DNA of 64,000 bases. Origin: Lama guanicoe. Taxonomy: Eukaryota. The position numbers and the translations under genes are program-made. The notes below the pieces were generated by a model. It saw only the letters and a list, made by a program, of their open reading frames with translations. It was not told the origin of the DNA and ran no database searches. Numbering within the stretch: position 1 is the first letter of the stretch; each line of letters opens with the position of its first letter. The DNA lies in assembly GCA_013239625.1 (NCBI GenBank), contig MU053136.1:762017-826016 (forward strand). Direction: 5' to 3'. Shown in pieces: positions 6,599 through 52,981 of this stretch.

Positions 6599-6820
6599 CT
6601 ACACAGCATCAGCAGGCCTTACTGAATTTGAAGTAAGACGAAGAACTAAGTCTGTCACTGGTGTCAGTAAATAAGACAGAGGGAGAGAAGCACTTGGCGT
6701 CCCAGCCAGCATAGTAGCGGGTCTGAGGCTGAACAGTGGTCAGGGCGTGCTCCATGCAGTTGGTGACCAGGCTCAGATTCTTCTGTCCTTTAGAAACAAG
6801 TTTATTAAAATACTGGTAAT
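6599..6820 (-). pseudogene. SDR9C pseudogene last exon, frameshifted
   Basis: ctataacag|AT TAC...NLSLVTNCMEHALTTVQPQTRYYAGWDAKCF[frameshift ~6686]LPLSYLLTPVTDLVLRLTSNSVRPADAV-TAG (6601-6599). Confidence 0.87.
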
Positions 6821-7024
6821 CTGTTATAGAGGGACAATGTTAGAGCTGTAAAAACACGTTAACATGGAAAGAAGCAGGATAAAATACAAGGTACAAACAG
6901 TATTGGAGGGGTGGGAGAGTGCAGGACAAGAACAGGAGGGCTCTGTGTTCCAGGTCTGATGGCTGGGTGGTGGCTGCTGGAGGGCTCTGTGAGAGGAGGC
7001 GGGCACAGGGCTTGGGGCACAGGC

Positions 7025-7335
7025 TTTGCGGCTGTGTTGTCCCGTACAGCAACCACAAGCCACACGTAGCAATTTAAAATAAGAAATGAGGCCAGTCTGA
7101 TTGAGATGTTCAGCAAGTGTAAGATTCACATTGTGTCTCAAAGACTTAGTACAAAGAAAGAATGTATAATATCTCAATTGCAATTTTCATGTTGATTATT
7201 TGTTGAAATGACAGTATTCTGGAAATGGTCTGTTCTGGATTAAATTCACCTGTCCATTGGTTTTTGGTTTGTTTTTTTTCAATGTGGCTGACGTTTGTGG
7301 CTGGCATTATATTTCTATTGGGCTAACGTCTATAG
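7025..7335. mobile_element. MER33-like hAT element in the last intron of the SDR9C pseudogene
   Basis: gttgtcccgtacagcaaccacaagccacacgtagc...aaagacttagtac...attatatttctattgg; similar to 41595-42570. Confidence 0.55.
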
Positions 7336-7669
7336 CAACATTGCCAGGGTTCAGTTCATCACTTTGCACTGTTTTGCTGAGTGATCTTGGGAAATCACTC
7401 AACATTTCAGGCCTCAATTTCCTTATCTGTAAATGAGGACTAGCAGCAGCACTTTCCTTCTAGGGTTATGAGGACTGAGTTAATCCTTCCAGAAGGCCTC
7501 GTGTGTGTTGAGTATGTGTTGGGGCTCAGGGGAAGCCGGCAGCCTGGGCGAGGCAGGAAGGGCAGCAGCAAGTGAGCCTAGTCTCAGACTGGCATGGAGC
7601 AAGCAGTCAAGAAGTTTTCTCAAGTTAATAACTTTGCCGTCCCTGTGCTGTGGGGACCGAGGAACTTAC

Positions 7670-7830
7670 AGCCTTTGAAATGCTTGTCTCCGTGACTCTC
7701 CTTCACCTCTGGGAACGCTTGGCCCCAGATCCCCTTGAGTACACCCTGTATATTGTCATGGCAAACGGATGTTTTAAATTTCCCAGGTGCTGTGATAGCG
7801 ACGTGAACAGCAAAAGGACAGAGCTCCCTT
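7670..7830 (-). pseudogene. SDR9C pseudogene exon (REL..F.V.V....PG.F.T)
   Basis: tgtttcag|A AGG GAG CTC...AAA GGC T|gtaagt; 161 nt; RELCPFAVHVAITAPGKFKT...IWGQAFPEVKESHGDKHF (ORF 7620..7841). Confidence 0.82.
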
Positions 7831-8973
7831 CTGAAACACAAGGCAAAGGACTGTTAACCAAGGAAACAGCATCATTCTGTGACCTAATCAGTCCCACCCC
7901 TTCTTAAACTAGAATGCTGCAGGCAGTGTTTCAAGAAAGGCATTTAGGTCAAGGAAGAAAATGAAAGAGTACACCCAAGTATCTGGGGAAGATGTTCAAA
8001 TAAAATTCAAAAGCACAACACCCATAGACTGCTTTCTGAGAAGCTTCAGATCTGGGCCGGAGGCACTGATGCTGCCTCTTCCTGCCCACCTCACACCTCT
8101 CTCCCACAGACCCACCCTCTGTGACAGCTCCCTGAGCCCTCACGTCCCTTCCTGGCCCCTGCCTCCTCCTCCTTACCTACTTGCTCAGTTCCTTTGTGAA
8201 GCCTCCTTTGGCCTCTGCTGCACAAAAAGGTAAGTCACCCCCTCATCATTGCCTCTATGCACCTGCACACACCCGTGTTCATATTTGCTGTATACCCACT
8301 ACAGAAGTTTTTCTCCCACAGAACTGAGTTCAGATTCTGGTTCAACCTCACACTTAACCGTAGAGAACCACATTTAACATGCGGGCTTTCTGTAAGGAGT
8401 AAATAGAGCACTTGGCACAGAGCTTTACCTTTAAATTAACCCGCCAATGTTCATTCTCCCCTCCTGAGAACCATTAGTCAGGTTTAGTGACTTAAAGCAC
8501 TTAAATAATAAGGCAAATAATGTTTTAGAAACAAACTCTTAACATTCCCATGTGGGATATACGTTATATACATAATATTCATATATATATGAATATTTTA
8601 TTTATATATGTCTTACAAAAATACATTAAATTTGTTTAAAACATAAAGACATCTTATAGGAATAACAATAAAACAAAGTAAGTCAAAAGAATATGAAAAG
8701 GAATATATATGAATATATATCTATAAATGAATCACTCTGCTGTACACCAGAAATTAACACAGCATTGTAAGTCAACTATATTTCAATTAAAAAAAAAGTC
8801 CTAATACATTTTTCACATTCCATAATGTATGACCTTATATTATCGAAAGATTTAGACATTCCATTCCCAAAGTCCTTCATTTCATTCAGCACCAATAGAT
8901 CTGGAACCCAGGCCCATCACTTGCAGATACACTCCCAGCCACAGTCAGGTCTTCCTCAGAGGCTGGTCCTTGC

Positions 8974-9230
8974 CTCAGGCTGTCAGAAGAGGCTTCTACA
9001 CTGTATTTAGAAATGCAGTCCACCACCCAACACAGACATTCTCCCAGTTGGGCTAGAATCATTGACTTTTCTTCCTCTGGTCTTTCTGACCAGGGGAAGA
9101 AAGCTCAAGGTCACCTTGACGAGGCCAATCAAGTTCACATTCAAGATCTTTAAAAAGTCGTCTTCGGTCAGCCATTGATTTGGGACAATAGGCAGGGCAA
9201 TGCCGGCATTGTTCACCAAACCCCAGAGGC
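8974..9230 (-). pseudogene. SDR9C pseudogene exon (catalytic exon), 2-nt deletion
   Basis: cttttaccag|GC CTC TGG GGT TTG GTG AAC AAT GCC GGC ([10 protein letters not shown]...[18 protein letters not shown]). GGA-C-TGC ATT TCT AAA TAC has lost 2 nt of the YxxxK Tyr codon near 9018. Ends CTG AG|gcaagg; 257 nt versus 259 for the paralogous exon in this window. Confidence 0.88.
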
Positions 9231-14785: not shown

Positions 14786-16520
14786 AGACACAGTGCCAGA
14801 GAGATATGAGCAATATGAAGAAGCAGAATAACCACTCCCAATTAAAAGATCAAGAGAAATCCCCTGAAAGTATGATCAAGGAAATAGACACTGATGGTCT
14901 ACTAGATCAAAACTTCAAAAAAGAGCTGATCAAAGTACTGAAGGAACTAAAACAGATAGTGTTTAGAGATATAAAATATGTCAAAAATGAAATAGAAGCT
15001 ATAAAGAACCAAGTAGTATTAGTAAACTCATTTGCTGAGGTGAGAGCTGCCCTAAAGGCTGTCCAAAGCAGGCTAGATAATGCAGAGGAACAAATAAGTG
15101 ACCTAGAAGACAGGACAACAGAAAGCGCCCAATCAGAAGAGCTGAGAGAAAAATAATGAAAACAATATAAGGGACTGATGGGATAACATAAAGCATGCCC
15201 ATCTATGCATAATAGGGGTTCCAGAAGGGGAAGAAAGAACAAAGAGGATTGTAAAGGTATTGGAAGAAATCATGACTGCAAACTTCCCAAACCTAAAGAA
15301 AGAATCAGATATCCAAGTAGAGGAGGCTCAGAGGGTTCCAAACAGGAAGAACCCAAACAGACCCACGCCAAGACATACCATAATCAAGATGGCCAGAGAC
15401 AAGGATAAAGAAATGATCCTGAAGGCAGCAAGAGAAAAACAAATTGTGAGTTACAAGGGACCCCCCCATGAGGCTCTCAGCTGATTTCTCGACACAAACA
15501 CTACAGGCCAGAAGGGAGTGGCAAGATATATTCAAAGTCCTGAAAAAAAGATGCAGTCTAGGATACTCTATCCAGCAAGGGTATCCTTCAGAATAGAAGG
15601 AGAGAGAAAGAACTTCACAGAGACAAGCAAAAACTGAAAGAGTTTAGCAACACTAAATCCATGCTAAAAGAAATATTGACAGGTCTACTCTAAATAGAAA
15701 AGAAGCAGGATGCTACAAAAATGAGAAACTCATAACTGGAAAGGAGATAACTGCCATGAATTCCAAAAAGAATAAACAAAGAATTGTAAAAGAAGACATC
15801 TAAATCACTGAAAGTGAGAGAGGGAAGCAAGGAAAGCCACTGTGGAAAACAGTATGGAGACTCCTCAGGAGACTAGGAATAGACTTACCATGTGACCCAG
15901 GAATCCCACTCCTGGGCATATATCCAGAAGGAATCCTACTTCAAAATAACACCTGCACCCCAATGTTCATAGCAGCACTATTTACAATAGCCAAGACATG
16001 GAAACAACTTAAATGTCCATCAACAGATGACTGGATGAATAAGAAGTGGTATATTTATACAATGGAATACTATTCAGCCACAAAAACCAACAACATAATG
16101 CCATTTGCAGCTACATGGATGTTCCTGGAGAATGTCATTCTAAGTGAAGTAAGCCGGAAAGAGAAAGCAAAATACCATATGAGATCACTCATATGTGGAA
16201 TCTAAAACAAACAAACAGACAAAAAAAAAACAAATACAAAACAGAAACAGACTCATAGACATAGAATACAAACTTGTGGTTGCCAAGGGGGCGGGGGGTG
16301 GGAAGGGACAGACTGGGATTTCAAAATGTAGAATAGATAAACAAGATTATGCTGTATAGCACAGGGAAATACATACAAGATCTTGTGTTAGTGCACAGCG
16401 AAAAAAATGTGACAATATATATATGTTCATCTATAACTGAAAAATCATGCTCTACACTGGAATGTGACACAACATTATAAAATGACTAGTACTCAATAAA
16501 AAATGTTAATTATCAAAAAA
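14786..16520 (+). mobile_element. 5'-truncated second copy of the same ORF2-deleted L1 derivative
   Basis: ORF1 fragments (14806..15156, 15260..15484) closely match the 24569-27355 copy. Same junction gcaaggaaagccactgtgg near 15834; ORF2 C-terminus 15963..16205; 3'UTR with AATAAA and A-rich tail. Confidence 0.88.
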
Positions 16521-24568: not shown

Positions 24569-27355
24569 TTTTTCTTTTCTTTTTTTTTTAACATTTTTTA
24601 TTGAGTACTAGTCATTTTACAATGTTCTGTCAAATTCCAGTGTAGAGCACAATTTTTCAGTTATACTTGAACATATATATATTCATTGTCACATTTTTTT
24701 CACTGTGAGCCACCACAAGATCTTGTATATATTTCCCTGTGCTATACAGTATAATCTTGTTTATTTATTCTACATCTTGAAATCCCAGTCTGTCCCTTCC
24801 TACCCACCGCCCCCTTGGCAACCACAAGTTTGTATTCTATGTCTATGAGTCTGTTTCTGGTTTGTTTGTTTGTTTGTTTTTTAGATTCCACATATGAGTG
24901 ATCTTATATGGTATTATTTCTTTCTCTTTCTGGCTTACTGCACTTAGAATGACATTCTCTAGGAACACCCATGTTGCTGCAAATGGCGTTATGTTGTCAG
25001 TTTTTATGGCTGAATAGTAATTCCCTTGTATAAATATACCACTTCTTCTTCATCCAGTCGTCTGTTGATGGACATTTAGGATGTTTCCATGTCTTGGCTA
25101 TTGTAAATAGTGCTGCTATGAACATTGGGGTGCAGGTGTTATTTTGACGTAGGGTTCCTTCTGGATATATGCCCGCAAGCAGGATTCCTGGGTCACATGG
25201 TAAGTCTATTCCTAGTCTCTTGAGGAATCTCCATACTGTTTTCCACAGTGGCTTTCCTTGCTTCCCTCTCCCACTCTTAATGATTTAGATGTCTTCTTTT
25301 ACAATTCTGTGTTTATTCTTTTTGGAATTCATGGCAGTTATCTCCTTTCCAGTTATGAGTTTCTCATTTCTGTAGCATCCTGCTTCTTTTCTATTTAGAG
25401 TAGACCTGTCAGTATTTCTTTTAGCATGGATTTAGTGTTGTTAAACTCTTTCAGTTTTTGCTTGTCTCTGTGAAGTTCTTTATCTCTCCTATTCTGAAGG
25501 ACAGCCTTGCTGGATAGAGTATCCACGGCTGCATCTTTTTTTCATTCAGGACTTTGAGTATATCTTGCCACTCCCTTCTGGCCTGTAGAGTTTGTGTCGA
25601 GAAATCAGCTGAGAGCCTCATGGGGGTTCCCTTGTAACTCACAATTTGTTTTTCTCTTGCTGCCTTCAGGATCATTTCTTTATCCTTGTCTCTGGCCATC
25701 TTGATTATGGTATGTCTTGGTGTGGGTCTGTTTGGATTCTCCCTGTTTGGGACCCGCTGAGCCTCCTGTACTTGGATATCTGATTCCTTCTTTAGGTTTG
25801 GGAAATTTGCAGTCATGATTTCTTCCAATACCTTTTCAATTCTCTTTGTTGACAAGCTTTATGTTATCCTATAGGTCCCTTATATTGTTTTCATTGTTTT
25901 TATTTGTTTTTCTCTCAGCTGTTCTGATTGGGTGCTTTCTGTTGTCCTGTCTTCTAGGTCACTTATTTGTTCCTCTGCATTATCTAGCCTGCTTTGGACA
26001 GCCTTTAGGGCAGCTCTCATCTCAGCAAATGAGTTTACTAATTCTACTTGATTCTTCTTTATAGCTTCTATTTCATTTTTGACATATTTTATATCTCTAA
26101 ACACTATCTGTTTTAGTTCCTTCAGTACTTTGATCAGCTCTTTTTTGAAGTTTTGATCTAGTAGACCATCAGTGTCTATTTCCTTGATCATACTTTCAGG
26201 GGATTTCTCTTGATCTTTAAATTGGGCGTGGTTCCTCTGCTTCTTCATATTGCTCATATCTCTCTGGCACTGTGTCTGGTGGGTGGGAGGGTCAATCCCC
26301 CTCCTGATGCCACAGTCAGATGCTGTGCTTGAGGGGAGGGAGGTGGGTGGATCTTGCCCCCCTCCCAGCACCGTGGTCAGGTGTTGCATTCCTACCTAGA
26401 AGGTGGGTGGCCGCCCACCCTATCCTGGCCCAGGTTGCTCGCTCCACCTCAGATTGGCGCTCCGCAGGCAGGCTCAGGGAAGACAGTGGAACGGCCCACC
26501 CCTGCTCTGGGCCAAATCTCAGCTCCTTGTTTGTCTTGGCAGTGCGAGTTCTCTGAGTTGCCAGGGCAGAAAGATCCTATCTGCCTCGGGCTGTAAACAA
26601 GTCTCAATCCTGCCTAGGAGGTTGCGGAGCCCCCGGGTGTGGATTTAGGTCTCACCCCTGCCCCTGCGCTGAGCACAGGAGGACATAGCAGCTGTGGCTG
26701 CGCCTGCCTCTCTTCTCACGAGAAGCGCCAGTAATGGCGCCACGGGTCTTAGGAGACGAAGGCTACAGCGCTCCTACCCCCAGGGCACACCAGCCTTGTT
26801 GCATGCTTTTTTCACAATTTATGGGGGACCAAGGTCATTCTGCTACATATCCCCTCCCAGCCATGGCGCGCAGCACCCAGCAGTCCCCCGGGGCTGCCTC
26901 AGTGCAGCTGTCCTAGTCCTCTGCCCGGCTCGGGTGGCCAGTCCTGGCCCCCAGCTGCCAGCTCACATCTCAGGGTGGGTGTTGCGGGGTCTCTTTGTGC
27001 CCATTTAACTTAGTTCTTTCAGTCAAGGGGTGCTTGGGGCAGATCTGAGCCTCAGAGGCTCCCCCCCTGTCCCACTGGCCTCTCCGTTGGAGGGGGGAGA
27101 CCCAGCAAATGAGCACTAGTCCTCCTTTGCCGCTCCCTCCCCGTGGGACTGGTCCTGCACTGTTTTGTTTTTTCTTCTTTCTTTTTTCCTTTTTTCCTAC
27201 CAGATTCGTGGTGTCTTTGTCTTTCGAAGAAGGCAATGTTCTTTCGGAATTCGGTAGGTGCTCTGGTTGGCTAAGTGGGTCTGAAAATGTGAGTCTTGGT
27301 GTATTTGTGGGAGAGGGTGAGCTACGAGTGTCCTTCTACTCCGCCATCTTGCTTC
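24569..27355 (-). mobile_element. 5'-complete, ORF2-deleted L1 derivative (HAL1-like): CpG-rich 5'UTR, ORF1, ORF2 C-terminal stub, 3'UTR and A-tail
   Basis: Perfect 18-bp TSD tgtatacactatattttc (24551-24568 / 27356-27373). 5' end GAAGCAAGATGGCGGAGTAG. ORF1 ATG at 26257, frameshifted (ORFs 25880..26389 and 25451..25855). Deletion junction ~25254. Confidence 0.9.
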
Positions 27356-28574
27356 TGTATACACTATATTTTCATTTCAGCTCCTATAGCTACTGAGAAG
27401 TGACTAGAATACATAAGAAGTAAAGTATGTCCTCAGACCAGCACAACTAAAGAAATTGTCTGCTCTAACAAAATGCATCACTCTTCCTCCTAAAATGAAA
27501 TTGCACAGAAATAGAAGTTCAGTTTTTAACTGAATAAAGAAGTTTACAAAGTTGGTTCTTTGTGGAGAACAAGGTTGGTGTGAGGTAAGGGGAGCCTGGG
27601 GAAACACAGAAGAAGGAGCTTTCCTCAAAAGAGACTTCTAAAGATGTGATGTTAAGGAGAAGTCTCAGGAAGGAGGGGCCAGTCAAGAAACAAATACTAT
27701 AGCAAGGTCAGTTGAGGCCAAAGCTGATTAGCATCCATTAATTTTTTAATTTGGAAGTTACCAGAGCAGCTGTGGTGCTGGCAAAGAAAAGAGCTGAATT
27801 AGACTAGACTGAGGTGGGTATGAGGGTGAAAAATCAGAAAGGAGAGAAGAAACTTCTCCTTTTGAAGAATTTGAATTTGAAGGAAAGAGCAAGACAGGGC
27901 GGTGTCTAGAAAGAGACACCAGGGTACAAAGGGAGTGTTTTCAATATGGCACAGATGGAAGTGTGTATCTAGACTTGGGGAAAGAACCAGTGACAGGAGT
28001 GGTTGAGAACAAGGCTAGGGAAGGAATAATTGCTAGAGGAAGGATGCAGGAAGGGACTGGATTCACAGCACAGGAGAAGAAATTCTCCTTACATAGGAGG
28101 AGAGACACTGCATCAGACTGCAGAGAAGGAGGTTATGTTGGTCAGCAGGGAACTCAGGAAATGGAGGGATTTCTCATTTGGTACCCTCACTTTTCTCTTA
28201 GTATGACAAGAAGATTGTGGGGTTCAGGGCATTGAGAACTATGGTGAATGTTTGAAAAAACTTATAGGGAAATGGGAGACAGCTGATTAGGGACACAGAA
28301 GCTGCTGCAATAAGCTTGGTATTAGACTTCAGACTCCATATTTTAGTAGCAAGAGACTGACTAAAACAGTGACCCAGGTGTCTGTTCTGTCCTGGGAAGA
28401 GGTGAAGGCAGCAGCAGGTTCACAGATTGGAGAATATAGAGAAAAGGGTCAAGGAACCTGCAGTCTACATGAGATCAAAGAACAAGAATTTGGGAGGATA
28501 GAAAGGAGAGTTCTGGAAACACAGGACCATGTGATCAGAAAGTTGGTACTGAAGTTTAAGATTTCAGAGAAGAA

Positions 28575-40755: not shown

Positions 40756-41256
40756 TTTTTAAGTAAAGAAGAAATACATTCAAAAACAGTTGGCAAATAG
40801 GGAGGAGAATACAAAATAAAACATTTTTTGAAATTACCAAAGTACACCCATTTCAAGTAAAGATAAACAGACCCACCCACGTATTTCTTAATGATCCCTG
40901 AGCAATAATAGTTCATCATATCACAGAACAGCTATTAATTTACATAAAGAAATTATATCAAAACAAATTAAATTGTTTTTGGTCTACTCTGTTTAATAAG
41001 ACAAGGAAGAATGATGCATTTTGAAAATACTGTCATCAAAAAATGTTTAAAATAGTAAAGATTCATCACCTAAAGGAATAAACTTTGGATATAAATATAA
41101 ACATGCTGGTTCTCTGATGATGCCAGATAAATGAGTTTAGGCAATAAAGCTTATTGTTGCTAAAAGTACAGATTATAAATAAAGATTACCGTAACACTAA
41201 CAATCAATTTCAGATTTTTGCCTTCGTCATTTCAAGAGCCACCAAGCCAGTTTTCT

Positions 41257-41473
41257 TTAGACTGCCTGGGCTGGTTTGGGCCAGGGTCTAGTCAATATAT
41301 AGTCTGCCAGGATGTAGGTAAATAAGATAGAGGGATGAAGCAAAATTGAGCATCCCAGCCTGCTGAATATCAAGTGCGGGGATGCACAGATGTCAGAGCG
41401 TGTTTCATGCAGTCTGTGACCAGGCTCATGTTCGGGCTAATTTGCGACAGCCCTTTTCTTGTGGTTTCAAAAT
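41257..41473 (-). CDS. HSD17B6: HSD17B6 last coding exon, disrupted by a nonsense codon and a frameshift
   Basis: tatacag|AT TTT GAA...[36 protein letters not shown][-1]LADYILTRPWPKPAQAV-TAA (41259-41257). 217 nt, one short of keeping the frame. Confidence 0.9.
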
Positions 41474-41594
41474 CTGTATACAAAAAGATAAATTGCAGTC
41501 AGCAATTTTATTCCTTGTATTTTAAGATCCTATTGCACTCAGCCACAGAAGTCTAACTATATGTAATTTCCACAAGCATTAGGCCGATCAGACC

Positions 41595-42570
41595 CATACT
41601 TCCCAATATAACAGTCACTAGCCACATGGAGGTGTTAAGCACTTAAAATACAACTAGTATGACTGAAAATTGAACTTTTAAATTTTAATTAATTTTAATT
41701 TTAAAACTCAATTCTGTTATTGGAAAACTTTTAAGTATCTTTGGAACAATATAGGTATGTTAATCTACTTTTTCAATTGGAAATTTTTTAACGTCTCCAT
41801 TGAGACATAATTCATACATCATAAAAATCATCCATTTAAAGTGTACAAATCAATGACTTTAAGTATAATCCGAGTTTTGCAGCCATCACCACAAACTAGA
41901 GAACATTTTCATCATCCCAAAAGGAAACCCTGTACCCATGAATAGTCACTCCCATTTCCGGCCAACCCACCCAGCCCTAGGCAACCACTAATCTATTTTC
42001 TGTCTCTATGGATTGCCTTTTATGGACATTTCATAGAAATAGAATCATACATTGTGGTCTTTTGTGACTGGCTTCTTTCACGGAGCAAACTGTTCTCAAG
42101 GTTCATCCATGTTGCAGCGTATATCAGTACTTCACTTCTTTTTATTGCCGAGTAATATTCCATTGTACGGCTATACCACACTTTGTTCACCCATTCAACA
42201 TTTAATGAACATTTAAGCTGTTTCCACTTTGGGGCTATTATGAAATAATGCTGCTGGCAACTACAAATTTTATTCATCTAAATATAGATGAAGTATGTCC
42301 TGGGAAAGTTTAGCATCCAAGTTGAGGTGTGCTGTAAGTGTAAAACACATACCAATTTTCAAAGACCTAAGGGAAAAAATACGTTAAATATCTTATTAAT
42401 AAATTTTATGTTGATAATAAATGAAGAAATGGCAGTATTTGAGGGTATATTGGTTTTAAATGAAATATATTATTACAATTAATTTTACCTGTTTCTTTTC
42501 CTCTTTTTAAAAGTAGCTATTAGAAAATTTATTGTATATATAGCTCTTAGATATCTATTGGACAGCACTG
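41595..42570. mobile_element. MER3/MER33-like hAT-Charlie element interrupted by an L1M 3' fragment (~41790-42255, minus)
   Basis: cccaatataacagtcactagccacatg...ctattggacagcactg termini; internal L1 ORF 42020..42277. Confidence 0.55.
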
Positions 42571-43805
42571 ACCTACTGACCTAGACTATTCTGATCCATG
42601 GACAAATAAATGAATAATGTCAACTCCTTTTAAATCATGAAATAAATACATCCCTCCTCTTACATATAGTCACTTCTTAGTAAATTCTATTTTGCTTTGA
42701 TTTCTGTTGTAAACTATATGTACCCATAAGGGGAAACAAATTCCCTCTTAGTTTAAAACTTTAGATGGGGAGGAGCTTAGAACAATGACTGGCCTCCTGG
42801 CATGGTAGGAACCATAGTTCCCTAGCTTGAGTTCTGAGAAGCTCGCACAGTTTTTTGTCAGACTTTCCTTGATCCAATTTCCCTCCCCCTGTTGGTGGTG
42901 ACCCTCTTAGGCCTGATGAACCCAGAAGACAGGGTTGTAGGTCGGAAATCTTCTGTCTGCGCATTGCCCTTCACCTTTCCTCTGTACTAAGACATCGTCC
43001 AAGGCCAGGGACAGGGCTACTGCTACCCACCCCACGGCCTTTTTGTGAAATGGAAAGGAGAGCTGCTCCCTTTGGCCTTGGCAAGCTGCTGACTTCTTTG
43101 TTTGGGAAAAAAAGCATCCCTTCCCCCAGGAAGGTGCCCCACACCAGTGTGCATGACTTACTTCTACTAGGAAGATTGCCTTCCATCCACCCCCAAAACT
43201 GCCTCCTCCTCCAGGTCATCAGAATGATATTCTTACACAAAATTGAACCATCTCACTCTTACAAGCCTGCTGTGGCCTGCACATGAGGTCCAGCCTCTGG
43301 GAATGGTCAATAGGGCCCTGCAAATCTGGTCCTCACTCACTCACCTCTGCCCACCTACATACACCCTGCGCCCCCTCACAATGAAACATGGAGTTTGTGG
43401 CCAGGCCCTGTTACCAAAAGAGTATGTGACATTGAAGGCTGCACTTTAGCTGAGCAGGCCTCCCACACCAGCCTGGCAAAACAATGAAGAGGCACGTCCC
43501 TCTCAAGACCCAGAGACTCCATGCCTCTAACCGTGTAATACCTCCCTGTGCTAGGCGGCCAGGCCCACAGGTGACAAGGCAGGGCAGGCCCTGGCCCTAG
43601 GCTGCCTGTATAGTCTCTTCCCCAGCCGCAGCAGCCATCACCAAGTCAGCCATGAGGGCAGTGGGACATTTCTGAGCCCCTCCTATCTTGGGAAGGCTCT
43701 GTTTAAGGAGCTTTATTCTCAGAGGATCTGCCAATCAATCCACACCAACCCTCTTTGCCCTTCTCATGCGAGGCTTTCCATGATCCCCTCAAAAGAAAAA
43801 CTCAC

Positions 43806-43969
43806 AGGGATCAAAAAACTTCTGTCCATAGGTCTCCTTGATATGAGGAGGGACTTCTTTCCAGACTTGCTTCATTGTCTCTGAGGCCTTCTGCAGATCT
43901 GTCATTTCTGTTCTGAAGTAGCCAGGTTCAACTATGCTGACTTTCACCCCAAAATGCTGAAGCTCACGC
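43806..43969 (-). CDS. HSD17B6: HSD17B6 third coding exon
   Basis: ttttccctag|G CGT GAG CTT...GAT CCC T|gtgagt; 164 nt; RELQHFGVKVSIVEPGYFRTEMTDLQKASETMKQVWKEVPPHIKETYGQKFFDP (translated by hand). Confidence 0.92.
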
Positions 43970-44964
43970 CTAGGGAAAAACCCTCAAGTTAATGCCTCTG
44001 ATTGGAAGATACCATAATTTCAATGTTCTCAGGGAGGAAACAAAACAAAACATAGTTATGAAAAACACATTTACCGAGTATTTTAAGGAGAGGAAAAAAA
44101 GAAATTTTAAACATCCCTAGATGCAACAGCCGGGACATGATTATACAAACTACCAGAACCATTCAACAGTTCTCAACACATCCACTCTTCTGAGTTATTA
44201 AGTACCTACCATGTGCTAGACACTGCAAACATGACGAATATGAGGAATAATAATGAAAATCAGCATTTTTATGGTATCTACTGTGCTACATGCTCAATCT
44301 CAGTAAATTAAGACTCTGCTCCCCACCTCAGAAAGCTCACAGTGAGTGAGTACGTCTAACAAGTAAGCAAATAGTTGCAATACAATTCAAAAGAAGTCTA
44401 AAGGAGAGGTATTCAGAGGGCTACATAAGTAGAGCGGGGGATGCAGACTTTCTGAGGGAGTCAGAATAGGCTTCAGTGAAGAGAAAATGTTGCAGTTGAG
44501 CCTTGAAGAATAAGGAAGGACTTTCCCCACGAAGAAAGAGGAGGAGTGGAATATCAGGCAATGGAAACTGCACACACAGAAGCAGGGGGCTGTGAAAAAT
44601 TACAGTGTGTTCAAAGACTGCAAGAGACCATTAATGGAATAGGATGTGGGCCTTAAAATTACAAGTCATTGGTCATTCCGGAATATTCAAGGCAGTTCAA
44701 AAAACAGTTCCAAAAATACTTATCAGAGGTTGTGCATGTCCCAGGCACTGTGCTAAGTGCCGCTTTTGCCAAGTGAAGTAAGATGATCTTGTGCACCATG
44801 TTAGACGCATACTGTAGGCACTCCAGGGAAAGCGATGAGGCTCCCTAAACTAGAAGTTCAAGCAGCCTTGCTAGGGAAGATGAGCCCAAGCTGATGTCAA
44901 AGAGAAATGTTTGGAATAATGGTCCGTAAGAATGTAAAACACAAAGCATCGTGACCCTCTAAAG

Positions 44965-45145
44965 CAATGAATGGTTCTCAGAGTGTAGACTCAGGATAAC
45001 AGTATTAGCATCTGGGGGCTTGTTAGAGATGCACATTATTGGGCCCCAGTCCAAATCGGAAACGCTCCAGATGAGAACCAACAGTCTGTTTGAACAAGCC
45101 CTCCAGGTGGCTGTGAGGCGTGCCAAAAGTAAAAAACCCCCGTTC
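44965..45145. mobile_element. MER5A-like hAT-Charlie element
   Basis: ggttctcagagtgt...gcttgttagagatgcacattattgggcccc...tttgaacaagccctccaggtg. Confidence 0.65.
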
Positions 45146-45679
45146 CAAAGGAAAGTCCTCCCTCACTGAACCAAAACATAAAACCCTCCAATTTAGAGCT
45201 TCAGAAAATGATTCTCCAGGTGTTTGAGTGTGCTGGGGAAGGGGAGGGGCTGTGCAAGCCAGGGGCGCTTCTGCCCTCTACATTCCCTTCCCCTTGCAGC
45301 TTGCTCACAGATTCCCAGCACATCACAACATCTCCATCCCCTGTCAAACTCCAACTCAGATGTGGGACAAAACTTCCTGTTTCTGTTGATCCCTAGCACA
45401 ATTAAGGCAAATTGGAACTTTGTAAAGGAATTAGTGATTTGAATGCTGGAAGAACATATCTTTGCTCTTGGTCTGGGAATGAGTCAAGGAGTCCAAGAGT
45501 CGTGAGTGGTGGTAAGTCAGCAGGGAGAAGCCCCATGGAGGCAGACAGGATGTCGGGCAGACAGGGAGCCAGGCAAGGTGCCTCCCACATAGTAACAACT
45601 TATGCAGTGTCCTCGGTTATTTCTTCCTAAGCAGATAATGTACTTTGCACGTTGTAATTGATACATACCAGTCATGGTA

Positions 45680-46177
45680 TGTGGTAGTAAATAATGGCTC
45701 CCAAAGATATCAGGTCCTAATACCTGGAACCTGTAAATATTTGTTACTGTAGGTGGCAAAGACTTTGCAGGTGTGACTGAGTTAAGGATCCTGAGATAGG
45801 GAGATTGTGCTAGATTACCTGGGCATGCCTTGAATGCAATCACAACTATCTTTACAAGAGAGGCAGAGGTAGATTTGAAGGCCAGCAGAGGAAGAGAAGA
45901 CAATATGATCACGGAGGCAGAGATTAGAGTGATTTTCCACAAGCCAAGGAATGCTGGCGGCCACCAGAAGCTGGAAGAGGCAAGTAATGAATTCTCTCCT
46001 AGAGCCTTCAGAAGGAACATGGCCCTGACAACAACTGACATTGGCCCAATGATACTGATTTCAGACTTCTAGCCTCCAGAGCTGCGAGAGAATAAGTATG
46101 TGGTGTTTTAAGACACCATACACCAGACATAAATTACTTCTGGTAATTTACTGTGGCAGCCATAGGAAGCTTATACG
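45680..46177 (+). mobile_element. MaLR (MLT1-type) solo LTR
   Basis: tgtggtagtaaataatggctcccaaagatatcaggtcctaat...ccaagaaatgc-like motif, gaagctggaagaggcaag...ggtaatttactgtggcagccatagg. Confidence 0.75.
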
Positions 46178-47146
46178 TGGTGCCTGTAATATTTACAGCT
46201 CATTTCCAAATGGAATTGCCCTAAGGTCAGCCTCTGCTAAAGGGGAGTTTGTGCAGCACCCTAATGTCTACAGCTGACTAGACTGGGAAGGGTGCTTGAT
46301 GGGAGGAGCGCCCCTCCCAGGCCTGGACAGTGATTAATTACAGTGTTATTACCTATATGGCTGTGACAAATTACTGAACCTCTGTGCCTCGGTTTCCCTA
46401 GACATACAATAAGGATAAAAATAATTCCTTCCTCACTGGGTTGCTATGAAAATTAAATGATTTAATAGATGTAAAGTACTCACAACAGTGCCTGACACAT
46501 AGTAAGTGCAAAATATATCACATGATGTGGTGTCACCTGGCATACACAAAAAAATGAACTCAGATAATAGGATTCTCTCTCTCAGAAACTGAATATAAAG
46601 GGAAATAAAAAAAAAAAGCAGCTGATAGACATGAAGCTGAAATGATGTATTAAAAAAATCCAGGAGGTAGAGGCAGGGCCATTAAGGGTTGTGGCAAACT
46701 GAAGTTACAAGAAAGAAAAGAAGCTGTTAGATAAAGAAAAGATACAAAAAGTAAAGCAAAGGAATAAGTTAGTTGGAAGCAGATAAGCACCAGAAAGAGT
46801 CGCCATGAAGAAACAAAGACAAGTGGAGGGAAGAAGACAGTCATCCTCTCTTCAGAAATGAAATTGTATCAAGGGTAAATCTTGAACTAAAGTGTGATTT
46901 GGTGACAGGAGACAAAGACCGGGGACAAAACACAGGTCTGCCAAGTCCTGATTGTGGCAGGTGAACGTTGATAAAGATACTAAAATCTGAGGCTCAGTTT
47001 CGTATATAAAATAGACCAGTAACAATATCTACAGATCGGATTTTGAGGGTGATGAAATAAGATAACGTAGGTGAAAGTGACGAGCATGGTATCGGAGACA
47101 TGTTTAAGTGCTCAGTCGTTGCTTCTGTTTTAACTTAAGAGTGTTA

Positions 47147-49600
<2,454 letters not shown>

Positions 49601-50316
49601 AATTTTTGTCACTGAAGGGATGGTAGCATACTCCCCTGAGAGAAGGGCCAAGGAGAAAAGCAGGTGTGGTGAAGAGAAGATAAAAAGACAGAGAGAGTCC
49701 TCCTTTACATTTTATGAATTTGAGGTTCCAGCAGAATTTGCAGATGAGAAAGCCAGCAAGTGGTTAGGAATTCAGGTGTGAAGAACAAGAAATAACATAG
49801 AAATCAAGATCATAAAGGTAATGGATAAAACTGTAGGTAGGTGGGGTCCATTCAGCATTGGTTGAGCCCGTAACATGTACCAGGCAAGATGTCAGAAACT
49901 GGAGTTACAGTAATGGGTAAGAGAGGTCTGTGTCCTCAGGGAGCACACGCTCTAACTGATGGGAAAATAATGACAACAACAACACTGTAGAAATATACTG
50001 CTCCGAACAGCACAGCACAGAGGCTGTGACTACCCGTAACTCCTGGTTCTGCCTGGGGGAGTCAAGAATGTCCTCAGGTAGGAGTAATAGTTTAAAGTCA
50101 ATTTTCAACTTTAAAGTACATTTAAAAAAAAATTAAACATTCTGCAACCCAAGCAAAATAATTTTATTGCCGGTTTGCAACTCCTAGGATAAATAGACAT
50201 TGAGGAGGTCCAATTAATAAGATCTATTAAATTATAAAACAAGAGGGAGGAACAAGAAAGAGGTTAAAGAGGATTTGGATAATATCCAAAGAAAATGCAA
50301 CTTAGAAAAAAAGATT

Positions 50317-50945
50317 GCTCATAATTGCCAAAAATTGAAAACAACCAAGGTATCCTTCAATATGTGAATGAAGAAATAAACTGTGGTAACTACAATAGAA
50401 TATTATTGAGCAATAAAAAGAAATGAGCTGTTAAGCTACAGAAAGACATGGAGGGACCTTAAATGCATATTGTTAAATGAAAGAAGCCAGTCCAGAAGGC
50501 CATACCCAGCATGATTCCAACTATATGACATCTGGTGAAAAACAAAACTACAGAAACAGTAAAAAGCTGAGGAGTTCCCAGGTTTGGGGGAAGGTGGTGA
50601 CGGAGGAAGAGATGACTAGATGGCTCACAGAGGATTTTTAGGGCAGTGAAATTATTCTACATTATGCTATTAATGGTAGATATGCAATAATTTCTATTTG
50701 GCAAAACCCATAGAACTGTGTAACACAGTGTGGATCCTAATGTAAATTACAGACTTCAGTTAATGATAATGCATCAATATTGGGTCATCAAATATAATAA
50801 ATGTGGCACGCCAATGCAAGACGTTAATAATAGGAGAAACTATAAGATGGGGGTTGTATATGGGAACTCCATACTTTCCAATTTTTCTATAAACCTGTAA
50901 CAGCTCTAAGAAATGAACTCTATTAATTAGAAAATAAAAACTTTT
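50317..50945 (+). mobile_element. L1M 3' end
   Basis: cataattgccaaaaattgaaaacaacc...gacatggagggaccttaaatgcatattg; A-rich end. Confidence 0.7.
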
Positions 50946-51339
50946 TTTTTTAAAAAAAGAAGAGGACCAAAGGCTGACTTTAGTGAATGTCTATATTTTA
51001 GATGGTAGCCAAGGGAAGAAGAATCAGTTTCTAAAGAACACCCTGAAAATTCTTCAAGCAAAGAATTGTGGTTGTAAACATTCTACTTGCAAGGGGGGAT
51101 AACAGCATCAAATCCATTGGGTTCATTTTTCAACGTGAAATTGTTAAGAAAATGAAACACCACAAAAGATCAAGACTGCCTTTCAAATGACAAAGCCAGC
51201 ATTTAAGCCCTGCTTTTGAAATTTTATATATATATAAAATATGTGATATATTACATATATATATTATATATTTGATATATATATATAACTTTAACATCTT
51301 CATGCCTAAGTAATGAAAGAAGAAAATAATTCTCTCTAC

Positions 51340-51652
51340 CTCTGTCCCCCACACGCTCTTTCACCCACTGGGTGGCCGCAGCGATGCTCTGTGTGTTGGT
51401 GACATCCAGGATCACCGTCTCCACCCTATCTGACGTCTGGCCCTTCAGCTTCTGGGCCCCCTTCTCCGTCAGACACGCAGCCAGCACCCTGAGTCCTCGC
51501 AGGTCCAGCTGCCTGGCCAGCAGGTTCCCGAAGCCCGAGTCACAGCCCGTGATGAATACGTACTTGTCCTGGAGGTGGCTCACCACCTGTCTCTCCCGGT
51601 ACCAGCGCAGGAGGTGGTACAGGCCCACCAGGGCCGCCGGGCACAGCCACGT
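51340..51652 (-). CDS. HSD17B6: HSD17B6 first coding exon (N-terminal anchor and TGxxxGxG Rossmann motif); start codon reads ACG
   Basis: Acceptor ttctttttcttttgaaAG (AG at 51673-51672), 19-nt 5'UTR, then ctcacc-ACG TGG CTG...GAC AGA G|gtagag. 313 nt coding; overlaps ORF 51251..51628. Confidence 0.92.
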
Positions 51653-52981
51653 GGTGAGAAGATCTCCTTCCCTTTCAAAAGAAAAAGAACAGTTTCATTT
51701 TATTCCTTCCTTTTTTCTCTAACCAGTATTGAGTATTTACTATGTGCCAGGCATTGCACGAGGTGCTGGGACTCTTTATTAACTAATATTTAGTCCAACC
51801 CTCTAGTCACAGTCCAGGGAGGGAGTCAGGGAAGTAACCAAATAAATGCACTGCCTTGTGTAGGTGCCAAATAGAAGTGTACACACAGTCTAATGAGGCT
51901 GCAGAGGAGGGCCAGTGACCCACCACCTGCAGAATTAGATACAGCTCTGCAGAGGCGGGGATTTTGGAGCTACTTCCTACAAGATAGTTGAGTTTAAAAA
52001 GTGGACAAGGATGAAAGGACACTCCAGGCAGCAATAATGTGCATATGAGTGGAGTGGTGGGCAACATAAAACTTGCTGATACCGACATGCAGCTCAGCAC
52101 GGTGAGGCAGAGAGCACACAGAGGAAGACGTGGAAGGTAAGGTAGGGAAGAGTCGGGCCAGGAGGGGCCCGTGGGCTGCACTAAGGCATCAGGATGCTGT
52201 CTTGCAGGCCACGAGGGTATGCTACTAGAAGGTATTAAATGCAGGAGTAAGATGACCAGACTTAGCTTTAGAAAGCTCTGCCTCACAGCGGGAAAGGAGG
52301 AAAGATTAAACGGGTGTGGTGAAGGCAAAGAGATTAGTTAAGAGACCCACAATTTCGGTGAGAGATTGCAGCCAAAGTAGTTTATAAATATAGACCAATC
52401 AGTTGCATTGTTCAGAGATGAGTGCTGGGTGTCCAGAGATGCCTACCTGTCTGTATGTAGTTCTGGAGAAACATCTACCACTTTGGGGCAATCTACAGTT
52501 GTTGGCTGAACTAACACATGATTCGTAAAGTTATAGGTAGAGGTCAAAGGCGGGCTTGGGCCCACTAGGACATCATAAGGCCCACACAGTGCCTGCCTTA
52601 GCTTGGCTTTACGGCCTTCCCAGTGCTCTGGCCCTTCACTTCCCCCTTAGCCTTCTCTTTGACCACACTTCTTTTACACCCTACTCTTCAGTCATAACAC
52701 ACACCGTCCAGTACCCTGCACACTACAGGCTTTTCATGCCTTGGTACACAATTCTGTGTACAGTTCCTTCTTTCCCAGCTCTCATCCCTTTGAGAAATAA
52801 CATTCATCTGTTGATGACTCCACTGAGTCATCATTTTCATTCGGCAGACATCAGTTCAGCATCTACTATGAGCCAGACACAATGTTAGGCACTGATATGT
52901 GACAGTGAACAAAACAAGGTTCCATTTTCACTGAACTCACAGTCTTAAGTGTAAAGACTGGCAAGAAAACAATGCGGTATA

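What the first reader, a model, noticed from the sequence alone, without database searches (positions are those of the whole stretch)
41257..51652. HSD17B6 appears recently inactivated by three independent lesions
Seen in sequence: start codon ACG instead of ATG; in-frame TGA at ~codon 280 in the conserved PRTRY motif (a CGA>TGA CpG-type change); and a 1-nt deletion at ~codon 300 (total 953 nt, not a multiple of 3). All splice sites and the TGxxxGxG, NNAG and YxxxK motifs remain intact. The conserved MEHAL also reads MKHAL here, while the neighbouring pseudogene keeps MEHAL. Established: HSD17B6 is a microsomal oxidative 3alpha-HSD/retinol dehydrogenase that converts androstanediol to DHT. Inference: a recent, lineage-specific gene loss (probably camelid) affecting androgen/retinoid metabolism.
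Basis: partly seen in the sequence, partly recalled or inferred. Interest (0 to 1): 0.8.

Follow-up and report, generated by a model that had tools for sequence, protein, structure and literature searches.

The report
Dead duplicate of camelid HSD17B6
This broken gene is the decaying second copy of a steroid dehydrogenase gene (HSD17B6) that was duplicated in early camelids, and because alpaca and camels keep an intact first copy, it is an ordinary dead duplicate and not a loss of the enzyme.

Summary
All sequence observations hold in the assembly. There are four minus-strand exons with intact GT/AG sites and 953 coding bases. Codon 1 is ACG, codon 280 is TGA, one C is missing after codon 300, MEHAL reads MKHAL, and the cofactor and catalytic motifs are intact.

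Camelids carry two HSD17B6 copies. Copy A is intact at 317 aa in alpaca and in three Camelus species. Copy B has a distinctive start of exon 4, and in dromedary and Bactrian camel its protein ends at residue 279. The window is copy B. It forms a clade with Camelus B (support 100/99), and trees that pair each B with its own lineage's A are rejected (p about 0.002).

The stop codon therefore predates the split between camels and llamas and is not recent. Only the ACG start and several substitutions are specific to this lineage. Camelus B has decayed separately, with the catalytic Lys changed to Asn and, in dromedary, a broken glycine motif.

Verdict: an unprocessed duplicate pseudogene in a gene family known for lineage-specific duplications. 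Interest is low.

The parts
51340..51652 (-). Coding exon 1 of the HSD17B6-like copy B (313 nt). It encodes the signal-anchor and the Rossmann motif TGCDSGFG.
   Evidence: Pfam adh_short E=1.3e-8 on the enclosing ORF. 96% identical to Camelus HSD17B6 records.
51650..51652 (-). Codon 1 reads ACG where all 10 compared relatives have Met.
   Evidence: sequence. T1 is unique to the window against 10 of 10 other rows. An in-frame TGA lies 15 codons upstream with no in-frame ATG between. The next in-frame ATG downstream is codon 131.
47148..47406 (-). Coding exon 2 (259 nt), with NNAG, the catalytic Ser and YCCSK.
   Evidence: Pfam adh_short E=1.1e-17.
43806..43969 (-). Coding exon 3 (164 nt). It carries the window-specific A245P change at its end.
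41257..41473 (-). Coding exon 4 (217 nt instead of 218). Its first 17 codons carry the copy-B signature shared with Camelus B.
41370..41372 (-). In-frame TGA at codon 280. It removes the last 38 residues and sits where the Camelus copy-B proteins end.
   Evidence: P0123 ends ...HPHT and P0127 ends ...HPRT.
41310..41312 (-). Site of the 1-nt deletion (a C-run one base short) after codon 300, downstream of the stop.
   Evidence: The frame shifts between TS and ADYILTRPWPKPAQAV.
41403..41405 (-). Codon 269 is AAA (Lys) where 9 of 9 compared relatives have Glu (MEHAL to MKHAL).

Best explanation
The locus is an unprocessed, duplicated pseudogene. It is copy B of an HSD17B6 duplication that arose in the camelid stem lineage.

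Proposed history:
- After the duplication, copy B acquired a cluster of changes at the start of exon 4 and a stop at codon 280. The stop cuts off the nearly invariant C-terminal 38 residues. Both events came before the split between Old World camels and South American camelids (inferred).
- Since the split, B has decayed separately in each lineage. In the window's lineage the start codon became ACG, there are further substitutions (L5P, A245P, E269K), and the now untranslated tail has a 1-nt deletion plus F290C and S309P. In Camelus the catalytic Lys180 became Asn, and dromedary also has T35M and G42R in the glycine motif.
- HSD17B6 function is presumably carried by the intact copy A, so no loss of the enzyme activity is implied.

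Shown here: the lesions in the assembly, the existence of two copies, and the grouping of the window with Camelus B. Inferred: the order and age of the events, and that the B product is non-functional.
For: 1. The lesions and exon model are read directly from the sequence.

2. The closest proteins to exon 1 are Camelus HSD17B6 records at 96% identity. The next best is 90%, among the 120 proteins listed of 1819 hits.

3. The 90% cluster of P0023 has 11 members, all named: 10 from Camelus and 1 from alpaca. They fall into two sequence types.
- Type A has 317 aa and reads ...YFENMKNGLLQSSTNLNLV...MEHAL...PRTRYSAGW...AQAV. Its members are P0122, P0128, P0129 and alpaca P0126.
- Type B reads ...YFETT[R/S]KGLSQISPNMSLV... 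and ends at residue 279. Its members are P0123 and P0127; P0125 is partial.

4. The window carries the type-B signature. It differs from Bactrian B at 2 of 34 pre-stop exon-4 positions, but from alpaca A at 11 of 34 and from Camelus A at 10 of 34.

5. In the tree of 22 rows, the HSD17B6 and RDH16 groups are separated with support 100/100. The camelid clade of 7 rows has support 99/100, and the B clade (window, dromedary B, Bactrian B) has 100/99.

6. AU tests reject window + alpaca A as a clade (p=0.0023) and reject Camelus A + Camelus B as a clade (p=0.0021).

7. Residues 280-317 are invariant at 34 of 38 positions among 7 intact orthologues from human, pig relatives and camelids. Their removal is therefore very likely disabling.

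8. Camelus B shows separate decay: K180N in 3 of 3 Camelus B rows, and T35M and G42R in dromedary B.

9. Introns are retained with GT/AG at all three, so this is not a processed copy.

10. Alpaca A sits on a contig of 66,773,292 bp. The same length is given for the contig of the alpaca RDH16 isoforms. Camelus A and B share contigs of 70,624,702 bp and 68,281,056 bp.
Against: - ACG and the deletion therefore rest on one assembly.
- The window's genome is not held. The presence of an intact copy A in this very species is extrapolated from alpaca and Camelus.
- Nearly all the signal for the B clade lies in 9 residues of codons 249-262 plus the shared stop. Exons 1-3 carry little copy-specific signal and show hints of gene conversion (A129 shared by the window and alpaca A; Bactrian B exon 1 identical to A at 104 of 104 positions). 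Part of the gene's history is therefore reticulate.
- The groups for the AU tests were named after the tree had been seen.
- That the Camelus B stop is the same TGA is inferred from where two independently annotated proteins end, not from their DNA.
- The 279-codon frame has stayed open in all three B sequences. A rough neutral simulation gives this about 2.5-7% probability over the window-to-Bactrian path (with an indel rate recalled from memory). Some past constraint or repair by conversion is therefore possible.
- The copy A rows are not resolved as a clade of their own (support 60/0).
Confidence: 0.85

Rival explanations
1. This is a true unitary loss. In the window's species HSD17B6 activity is gone, either because copy A is also absent or broken there or because the window is the only copy.
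For: The three lesions are present. The window's own genome could not be searched for copy A.
Against: Alpaca, the closest named relative by shared residues, has an intact 317-aa copy A under two NCBI accessions. So do three Camelus species. The window carries the B signature and not the A signature.
Confidence: 0.04
2. Assembly or consensus errors are responsible. The ACG and/or the 1-nt deletion in a C-run are artefacts, and the locus in this species resembles Camelus B, with an ATG start and an ORF truncated at 279 aa.
For: The deletion lies in a short homopolymer run. No reads could be laid. Camelus B keeps its ATG.
Against: 15 DNA-type runs of five coded organisms in seven coded studies hold 0.76-0.85 of the 1058 sampled 31-letter words of 41200-51199. 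The locus as assembled is therefore widely reproduced, although that search is not specific to the lesion positions and did not cover exon 1. The window also carries several other unique non-conservative changes (L5P, A245P, E269K, F290C, S309P), as expected of real decay. Even if this rival were true, the stop at codon 280 and the dead-duplicate reading would stand.
Confidence: 0.07
3. Copy B is still a working, C-terminally truncated paralogue. It would be translated from the near-cognate ACG in its ACC-ACG context or from an upstream in-frame ATG in a 5' exon, and its remodelled segment at codons 249-262 would give it a new substrate preference.
For: All cofactor and catalytic motifs are intact in the window. 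The 279-codon frame is open in all three B sequences, which a rough neutral model makes unlikely (2.5-7%). The stop is in the last exon, so by the established rule nonsense-mediated decay is not expected. Camelus gene models carry N-terminal extensions from upstream exons.
Against: The lost 38 residues are invariant at 34 of 38 positions across intact orthologues. Camelus B has lost the catalytic Lys, and dromedary B has also lost the glycine motif. L5P falls in the signal-anchor, and Met1 is lost. No upstream coding exon matching the Camelus extensions was found in the window. Gene conversion from A can explain the open frame.
Confidence: 0.04

Closest known systems
Camelus 'HSD17B6-like' gene products: C. 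bactrianus XP_074230670.1 (P0127), C. dromedarius KAB1270629.1 (P0123), C. ferus EPY80112.1 (P0125, partial)
   Same: They share the copy-B exon-4 signature (FETT[R/S]KGLSQISPNMSLV) and end at residue 279. Bactrian B is 95% identical to the window over 279 columns. They form a clade with the window at support 100/99.
   Different: Camelus B keeps its ATG and is annotated as protein-coding, but has K180N at the catalytic Lys (plus T35M and G42R in dromedary). The window keeps K180 and the glycine motif but has ACG at codon 1, L5P, A245P and E269K.
Camelid HSD17B6 copy A: alpaca XP_006219530.1 / XP_072830005.1 (P0126), Camelus P0122 and P0128
   Same: It belongs to the same camelid-specific HSD17B6 clade (support 99/100). 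Exons 1-3 differ from the window at only 13 of 245 positions in alpaca A.
   Different: Copy A is intact at 317 aa, with Met1, MEHAL, PRTRY and the full C-terminus. It differs from the window at 11 of 34 pre-stop exon-4 positions.
Human HSD17B6 (SDR9C6), a microsomal oxidative 3-alpha-hydroxysteroid dehydrogenase
   Same: It has the same four coding exons by alignment (tblastn blocks) and the same motifs. The window falls on the HSD17B6 side of the 100/100 split from RDH16. Passages of PMC8761697 report that the human enzyme strongly prefers androsterone and has only marginal activity on retinol and oxylipins.
   Different: The window is not a one-to-one orthologue, because camelids have two copies. 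The window copy is disabled.
Lineage-specific expansions of the SDR9C (RDH16/RDH7/HSD17B6) cluster, for example in mouse
   Same: Passages of PMC8761697 state that there are 8 human and at least 13 mouse SDR9C members, arising from multiple rounds of lineage-specific duplication. The camelid A/B pair, the older RDH16-like pseudogene in the window and the further alpaca fragment P0141 fit this pattern of gene birth and death.
   Different: I found no paper describing the camelid duplication or its decay.

Membership tests
Classical short-chain dehydrogenase/reductase (Pfam adh_short, PF00106) | Profile match above the curated cut-off | tested here: met
   The exon 2 ORF scores 64.6 bits and the exon 1 ORF 35.0 bits, against a cut-off of 26.6.
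Classical short-chain dehydrogenase/reductase (Pfam adh_short, PF00106) | TGxxxGxG cofactor motif, NNAG, and the catalytic Ser / YxxxK (motif definitions recalled from memory) | tested here: met
   TGCDSGFG at codons 35-42, NNAG at 111-114, SS at 163-164 and YCCSK at 176-180.
Classical short-chain dehydrogenase/reductase (Pfam adh_short, PF00106) | Uninterrupted reading frame with a start codon | tested here: not met
   ACG at codon 1, TGA at codon 280 and a frameshift after codon 300.
HSD17B6 (SDR9C6) branch as opposed to RDH16 | Falls inside the HSD17B6 clade | tested here: met
   A branch with support 100/100 separates 16 HSD17B6-type rows, including the window, from 6 RDH16 rows.
One-to-one orthologue of HSD17B6 (needed for a 'gene loss' claim) | Single copy in the lineage, with no intact co-orthologue | tested here: not met
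   There are two copies in Camelus, and an intact copy A in alpaca and Camelus. The window is in the B clade. This could not be tested in the window's own genome.
Unprocessed (duplicated) pseudogene | Introns retained at the parental positions | tested here: met
   Three introns with GT/AG. The exon blocks align to the same protein intervals as in human and Camelus.
Unprocessed (duplicated) pseudogene | Disabling lesions, together with an intact parent copy in the lineage | tested here: met
   The lesions are shown. The intact copy A is shown (alpaca and Camelus, not the window's own genome).
Unprocessed (duplicated) pseudogene | Neutral evolution (dN/dS about 1) since inactivation | not testable with these tools
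   No nucleotide sequence of copy A or of Camelus B was available. Protein branch lengths are window B 0.033 against alpaca A 0.035, which is not decisive.
Processed pseudogene | Intronless copy | tested here: not met
   The coding exons are spread over 10.4 kb with introns.

The most novel reading that the evidence does not exclude
Copy B was not dead on arrival. After the duplication it may have served the camelid ancestor as a C-terminally truncated 279-aa paralogue. It would have had a remodelled segment, with 9 shared replacements in the 14 codons 249-262, possibly at the substrate-binding lid. It would then have been lost in parallel by different routes: loss of the start codon in the South American lineage and loss of the catalytic Lys in Camelus. 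The open 279-codon frame in all three B sequences, which a rough neutral model makes unlikely, would be the trace of that functional period.
Probability: 0.12. Interest if true: 0.35.

Novelty: new member of a known kind. Interest (0 to 1): 0.12.

Why it matters
It matters little beyond annotation. The result prevents a false claim that South American camelids have lost HSD17B6 and, with it, the back-conversion of androstanediol to DHT. It documents a camelid-specific duplication of HSD17B6 whose second copy carries a shared ancient stop and is decaying by different lesions in the two camelid tribes. It also warns that gene-loss screens and gene models in the SDR9C cluster are easily confused by near-identical paralogues. 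Some older dromedary models appear to mix residues of both copies.

Tried and rejected
- **Read laying.** I asked for runs X2, X4, X10 and X16 on 41200-51700. The RNA-type rows (shares 0.06-0.14) were never laid and are no evidence of expression.
- **Own-genome search.** No genome is held for this window.
- **Second protein search at near lengths.** I hoped for run-derived ORFs of exon 1 that would show ATG or ACG. None of the 120 listed proteins (of 396 hits) is near-identical to the window. The search only turned up P0141, a further alpaca fragment.
- **Exact-pattern scan of metagenome contigs.** The pattern spanned the start-codon site, with either base allowed at the changed position. It gave 0 matches.
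- **Earlier findings.** Nothing was on record.
- **Upstream coding exons.** I searched the window for exons matching the N-terminal extensions of the Camelus gene models. Nothing convincing appeared beyond the part contiguous with exon 1.
- **Literature.** I found no paper on camelid HSD17B6 and none on C-terminal truncation of RoDH-type enzymes. One search failed on a malformed search term.
- **Rejected readings.** A processed pseudogene is ruled out because introns are present. A Lamini-specific recent duplicate of copy A is rejected by the AU test (p=0.0023). Selenocysteine read-through of the TGA has nothing to support it, and Arg is the conserved residue at that position.
Full report
**1. 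What is in the sequence**

The window is mammalian. It has AT-rich intergenic DNA and L1 ORF1 fragments, and the only other Pfam matches are short-chain dehydrogenase exons. I scanned 128 of the 152 stop-to-stop ORFs of 75 aa or more. The 24 left out lie inside or antisense to the gene between about 42.8 and 51.8 kb.

On the minus strand between 51652 and 41257 there are four coding exons of 313, 259, 164 and 217 nt. All three introns have GT donors and AG acceptors. The total is 953 nt.

- Codon 1 is ACG (51652..51650).
- Codon 280 is TGA (41372..41370), within HPRT*YSAGW.
- A C-run at 41311-41310 is one base short after codon 300, which shifts the frame before ADYILTRPWPKPAQAV*.
- Codon 269 is Lys, so MEHAL reads MKHAL.
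- TGCDSGFG, NNAG and YCCSK are intact.

**2. What could not be checked**

One search shows that 15 DNA-type runs, from five coded organisms in seven coded studies, hold 0.76-0.85 of the 1058 sampled words of 41200-51199. The locus as assembled is therefore widely reproduced, but that search is not specific to the lesion positions and did not cover exon 1.

**3. Identity**

A search with exon 1 returned 1819 hits, of which 120 were listed. The two closest are Camelus dromedarius HSD17B6 records at 96% identity. The next best is 90%, and alpaca RDH16 isoforms are at 88%.

Opening the 90% cluster of the best hit was decisive. It has 11 named members, 10 from Camelus and 1 from alpaca. Their sequences fall into two types.

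- **Type A** (P0122, P0128, P0129, alpaca P0126) has 317 aa. Exon 4 reads YFENMKNGLLQSSTNLNLVTDCMEHAL...HPRTRYSAGW...AQAV.
- **Type B** (dromedary P0123, Bactrian P0127, partial C. ferus P0125) reads YFETT[R/S]KGLSQISPNMSLVTDCMEHAL...HP[R/H]T and ends there, at residue 279.

Camelus A and B lie on the same chromosome-sized contigs. Alpaca A lies on a contig of the same length as the one carrying alpaca RDH16.

The window reads YFETTRKGLSQISPNMSLV...HPRT*, so it is type B. Per-exon counts:

| Comparison | Exon 1 | Exon 2 | Exon 3 | Exon 4 before the stop |
|---|---|---|---|---|
| Window vs Bactrian B | 5/104 | 6/87 | 2/54 | 2/34 |
| Window vs alpaca A | 7/104 | 3/87 | 3/54 | 11/34 |

**4. Phylogeny**

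I built a maximum-likelihood tree of 22 rows (the window read through with X at both breaks, 6 camelid proteins, 9 other HSD17B6-type rows and 6 RDH16 rows), keeping 317 of 444 columns.

- HSD17B6-type and RDH16 rows are separated with support 100/100.
- All 7 camelid rows form one clade (99/100).
- The window, dromedary B and Bactrian B form a clade (100/99).
- The A rows are not resolved as a clade of their own (60/0).

AU tests reject holding the window with alpaca A (p=0.0023) and reject holding all Camelus A and B rows together (p=0.0021).

Two caveats apply. The groups were named after the tree had been seen. Almost all the B signal sits in 9 replacements within codons 249-262.

The simplest history has three steps. 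There was one duplication in the camelid stem, after the split from pigs and peccaries. The exon-4 changes and the stop at codon 280 then arose on the B stem. The Camelus and South American lineages split afterwards. [quoted passage not shown]

The window is not from one of the three Camelus species. It differs from their B copies at 15-20 of 279 residues. It also shares A129 and R154 with alpaca A. A South American camelid is the likely source.

**5. Mechanism: what the lesions do**

The stop removes residues 280-317. These are invariant at 34 of 38 positions among 7 intact proteins from human, warthog, peccary, alpaca and camels. From this conservation I infer that the truncated product lacks an essential part.

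In the window's lineage Met1 is also gone. The in-frame stretch upstream runs into a TGA after 15 codons with no ATG. The next in-frame ATG downstream is codon 131, beyond the cofactor-binding motifs. No upstream coding exon like those in the Camelus models was recognisable.

The deletion after codon 300 lies downstream of the stop. Together with F290C and S309P, it marks drift in a tail that is no longer translated.

Camelus B shows different damage. K180N at the catalytic Lys is present in 3 of 3 Camelus B rows, and dromedary B also has T35M and G42R in the glycine motif. Different lesions in each lineage, laid on top of a shared stop, are the expected picture for a gene that was already dispensable when the lineages split.

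**6. What does not fit perfectly**

The 279-codon frame is still open in all three B sequences. I ran a crude neutral simulation on the window's own codons, with transitions as two thirds of changes and an indel-to-substitution ratio of 0.08-0.125 (recalled, not measured). It gives 2.5-7% for no stop and no indel along the 15-replacement path between the window and Bactrian B.

There are two possible explanations.

- **Gene conversion from A.** Several observations hint at this. Bactrian B exon 1 is identical to A at 104 of 104 positions, while dromedary B differs from its A at 9 of 104. The window and alpaca A share A129 against Thr in all Camelus rows. Older dromedary models P0022, P0023 and P0130 combine A-type exons with B-type exon-3 residues (H192, C208).
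- **A period of selection on the truncated protein.** This is my "novel case", to which I give about 12%.

Two further points argue for caution. ACG in an ACC-ACG context can support weak initiation, and a stop in the last exon is not expected to trigger nonsense-mediated decay. Both are established general knowledge and were not tested here. "Dead" is therefore an inference.

**7. Comparison with what is known**

The locus is a classical SDR by profile and motifs, and it lies on the HSD17B6 side of the family. It fails the test for a unitary orthologue, so it cannot be filed as "loss of HSD17B6". It meets the tests for an unprocessed duplicated pseudogene.

The SDR9C family is known for lineage-specific duplications. 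Passages of PMC8761697 give 8 human and at least 13 mouse members.

The window holds an older RDH16-like pseudogene as well, at 6657-9216 on the minus strand. Alpaca has at least one further exon-1-type fragment (P0141). My searches found no paper on the camelid duplication. These cover only the open library; I saw listings and abstracts, plus passages of PMC8761697 alone.

**8. Verdict**

This is a new member of a known kind and of low interest. Its main value is as a correction and as an annotation note on a confusing pair of paralogues.

Noticed in passing
window 6657-9216 (-): This is an older RDH16-like pseudogene, 63-65% identical to RDH16 in exon 2 against 48-56% to HSD17B6. Exons 2, 3 and 4 are recognisable. 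There is a frameshift at about 9018 just before the catalytic CxSKY, and an in-frame stop near 7856. No exon 1 was found in the window. It keeps NCMEHAL and has CGC at the codon that is TGA in the main locus.
   Followed up: partly
window 27205-27315 (+): A 37-aa stretch is 73% identical (E=1.7e-14 within the window) to residues 10-46 of the N-terminal extension of alpaca RDH16 isoform X2 (P0031). It lies in the GC-richest 2-kb bin of the window (0.493 at 26001-28000). It may be a remnant of a duplicated RDH16 5' exon or promoter region, or a shared repeat.
   Followed up: no
window 15179-15481 (+) and 25454-25858 (-): These are L1 ORF1 fragments (Pfam Transposase_22, E=1e-19 and 6e-21; the second also matches the dsRBD-like domain).
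   Followed up: no
protein P0141 (alpaca 'HSD17B6-like', 165 aa, nr only; not in the window): This is a further alpaca exon-1-type fragment. It begins ...VWLCPAAL, sharing the window's Cys4 and Pro5, and has Val where Met1 should be. Otherwise it is RDH16-like. It suggests more decayed copies, or sequence exchange among members of the cluster.
   Followed up: no
proteins P0022, P0023, P0130 against P0128 (dromedary; not in the window): Older dromedary HSD17B6 models carry A-type exons 1, 2 and 4 but B-type exon-3 residues (H192, V201, C208). The newer model P0128 is A-type throughout. The cause is either chimeric models or assemblies across the two copies, or gene conversion or polymorphism.
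   Followed up: no
window 41422-41464 (-), codons 249-262: Nine of the fixed A/B differences are packed into the 14 codons 249-262 at the start of exon 4, while the rest of the protein differs by about 3%. The cause is either a local burst (a complex mutation, or selection on a lid segment) or the only stretch that escaped homogenisation by conversion.
   Followed up: partly
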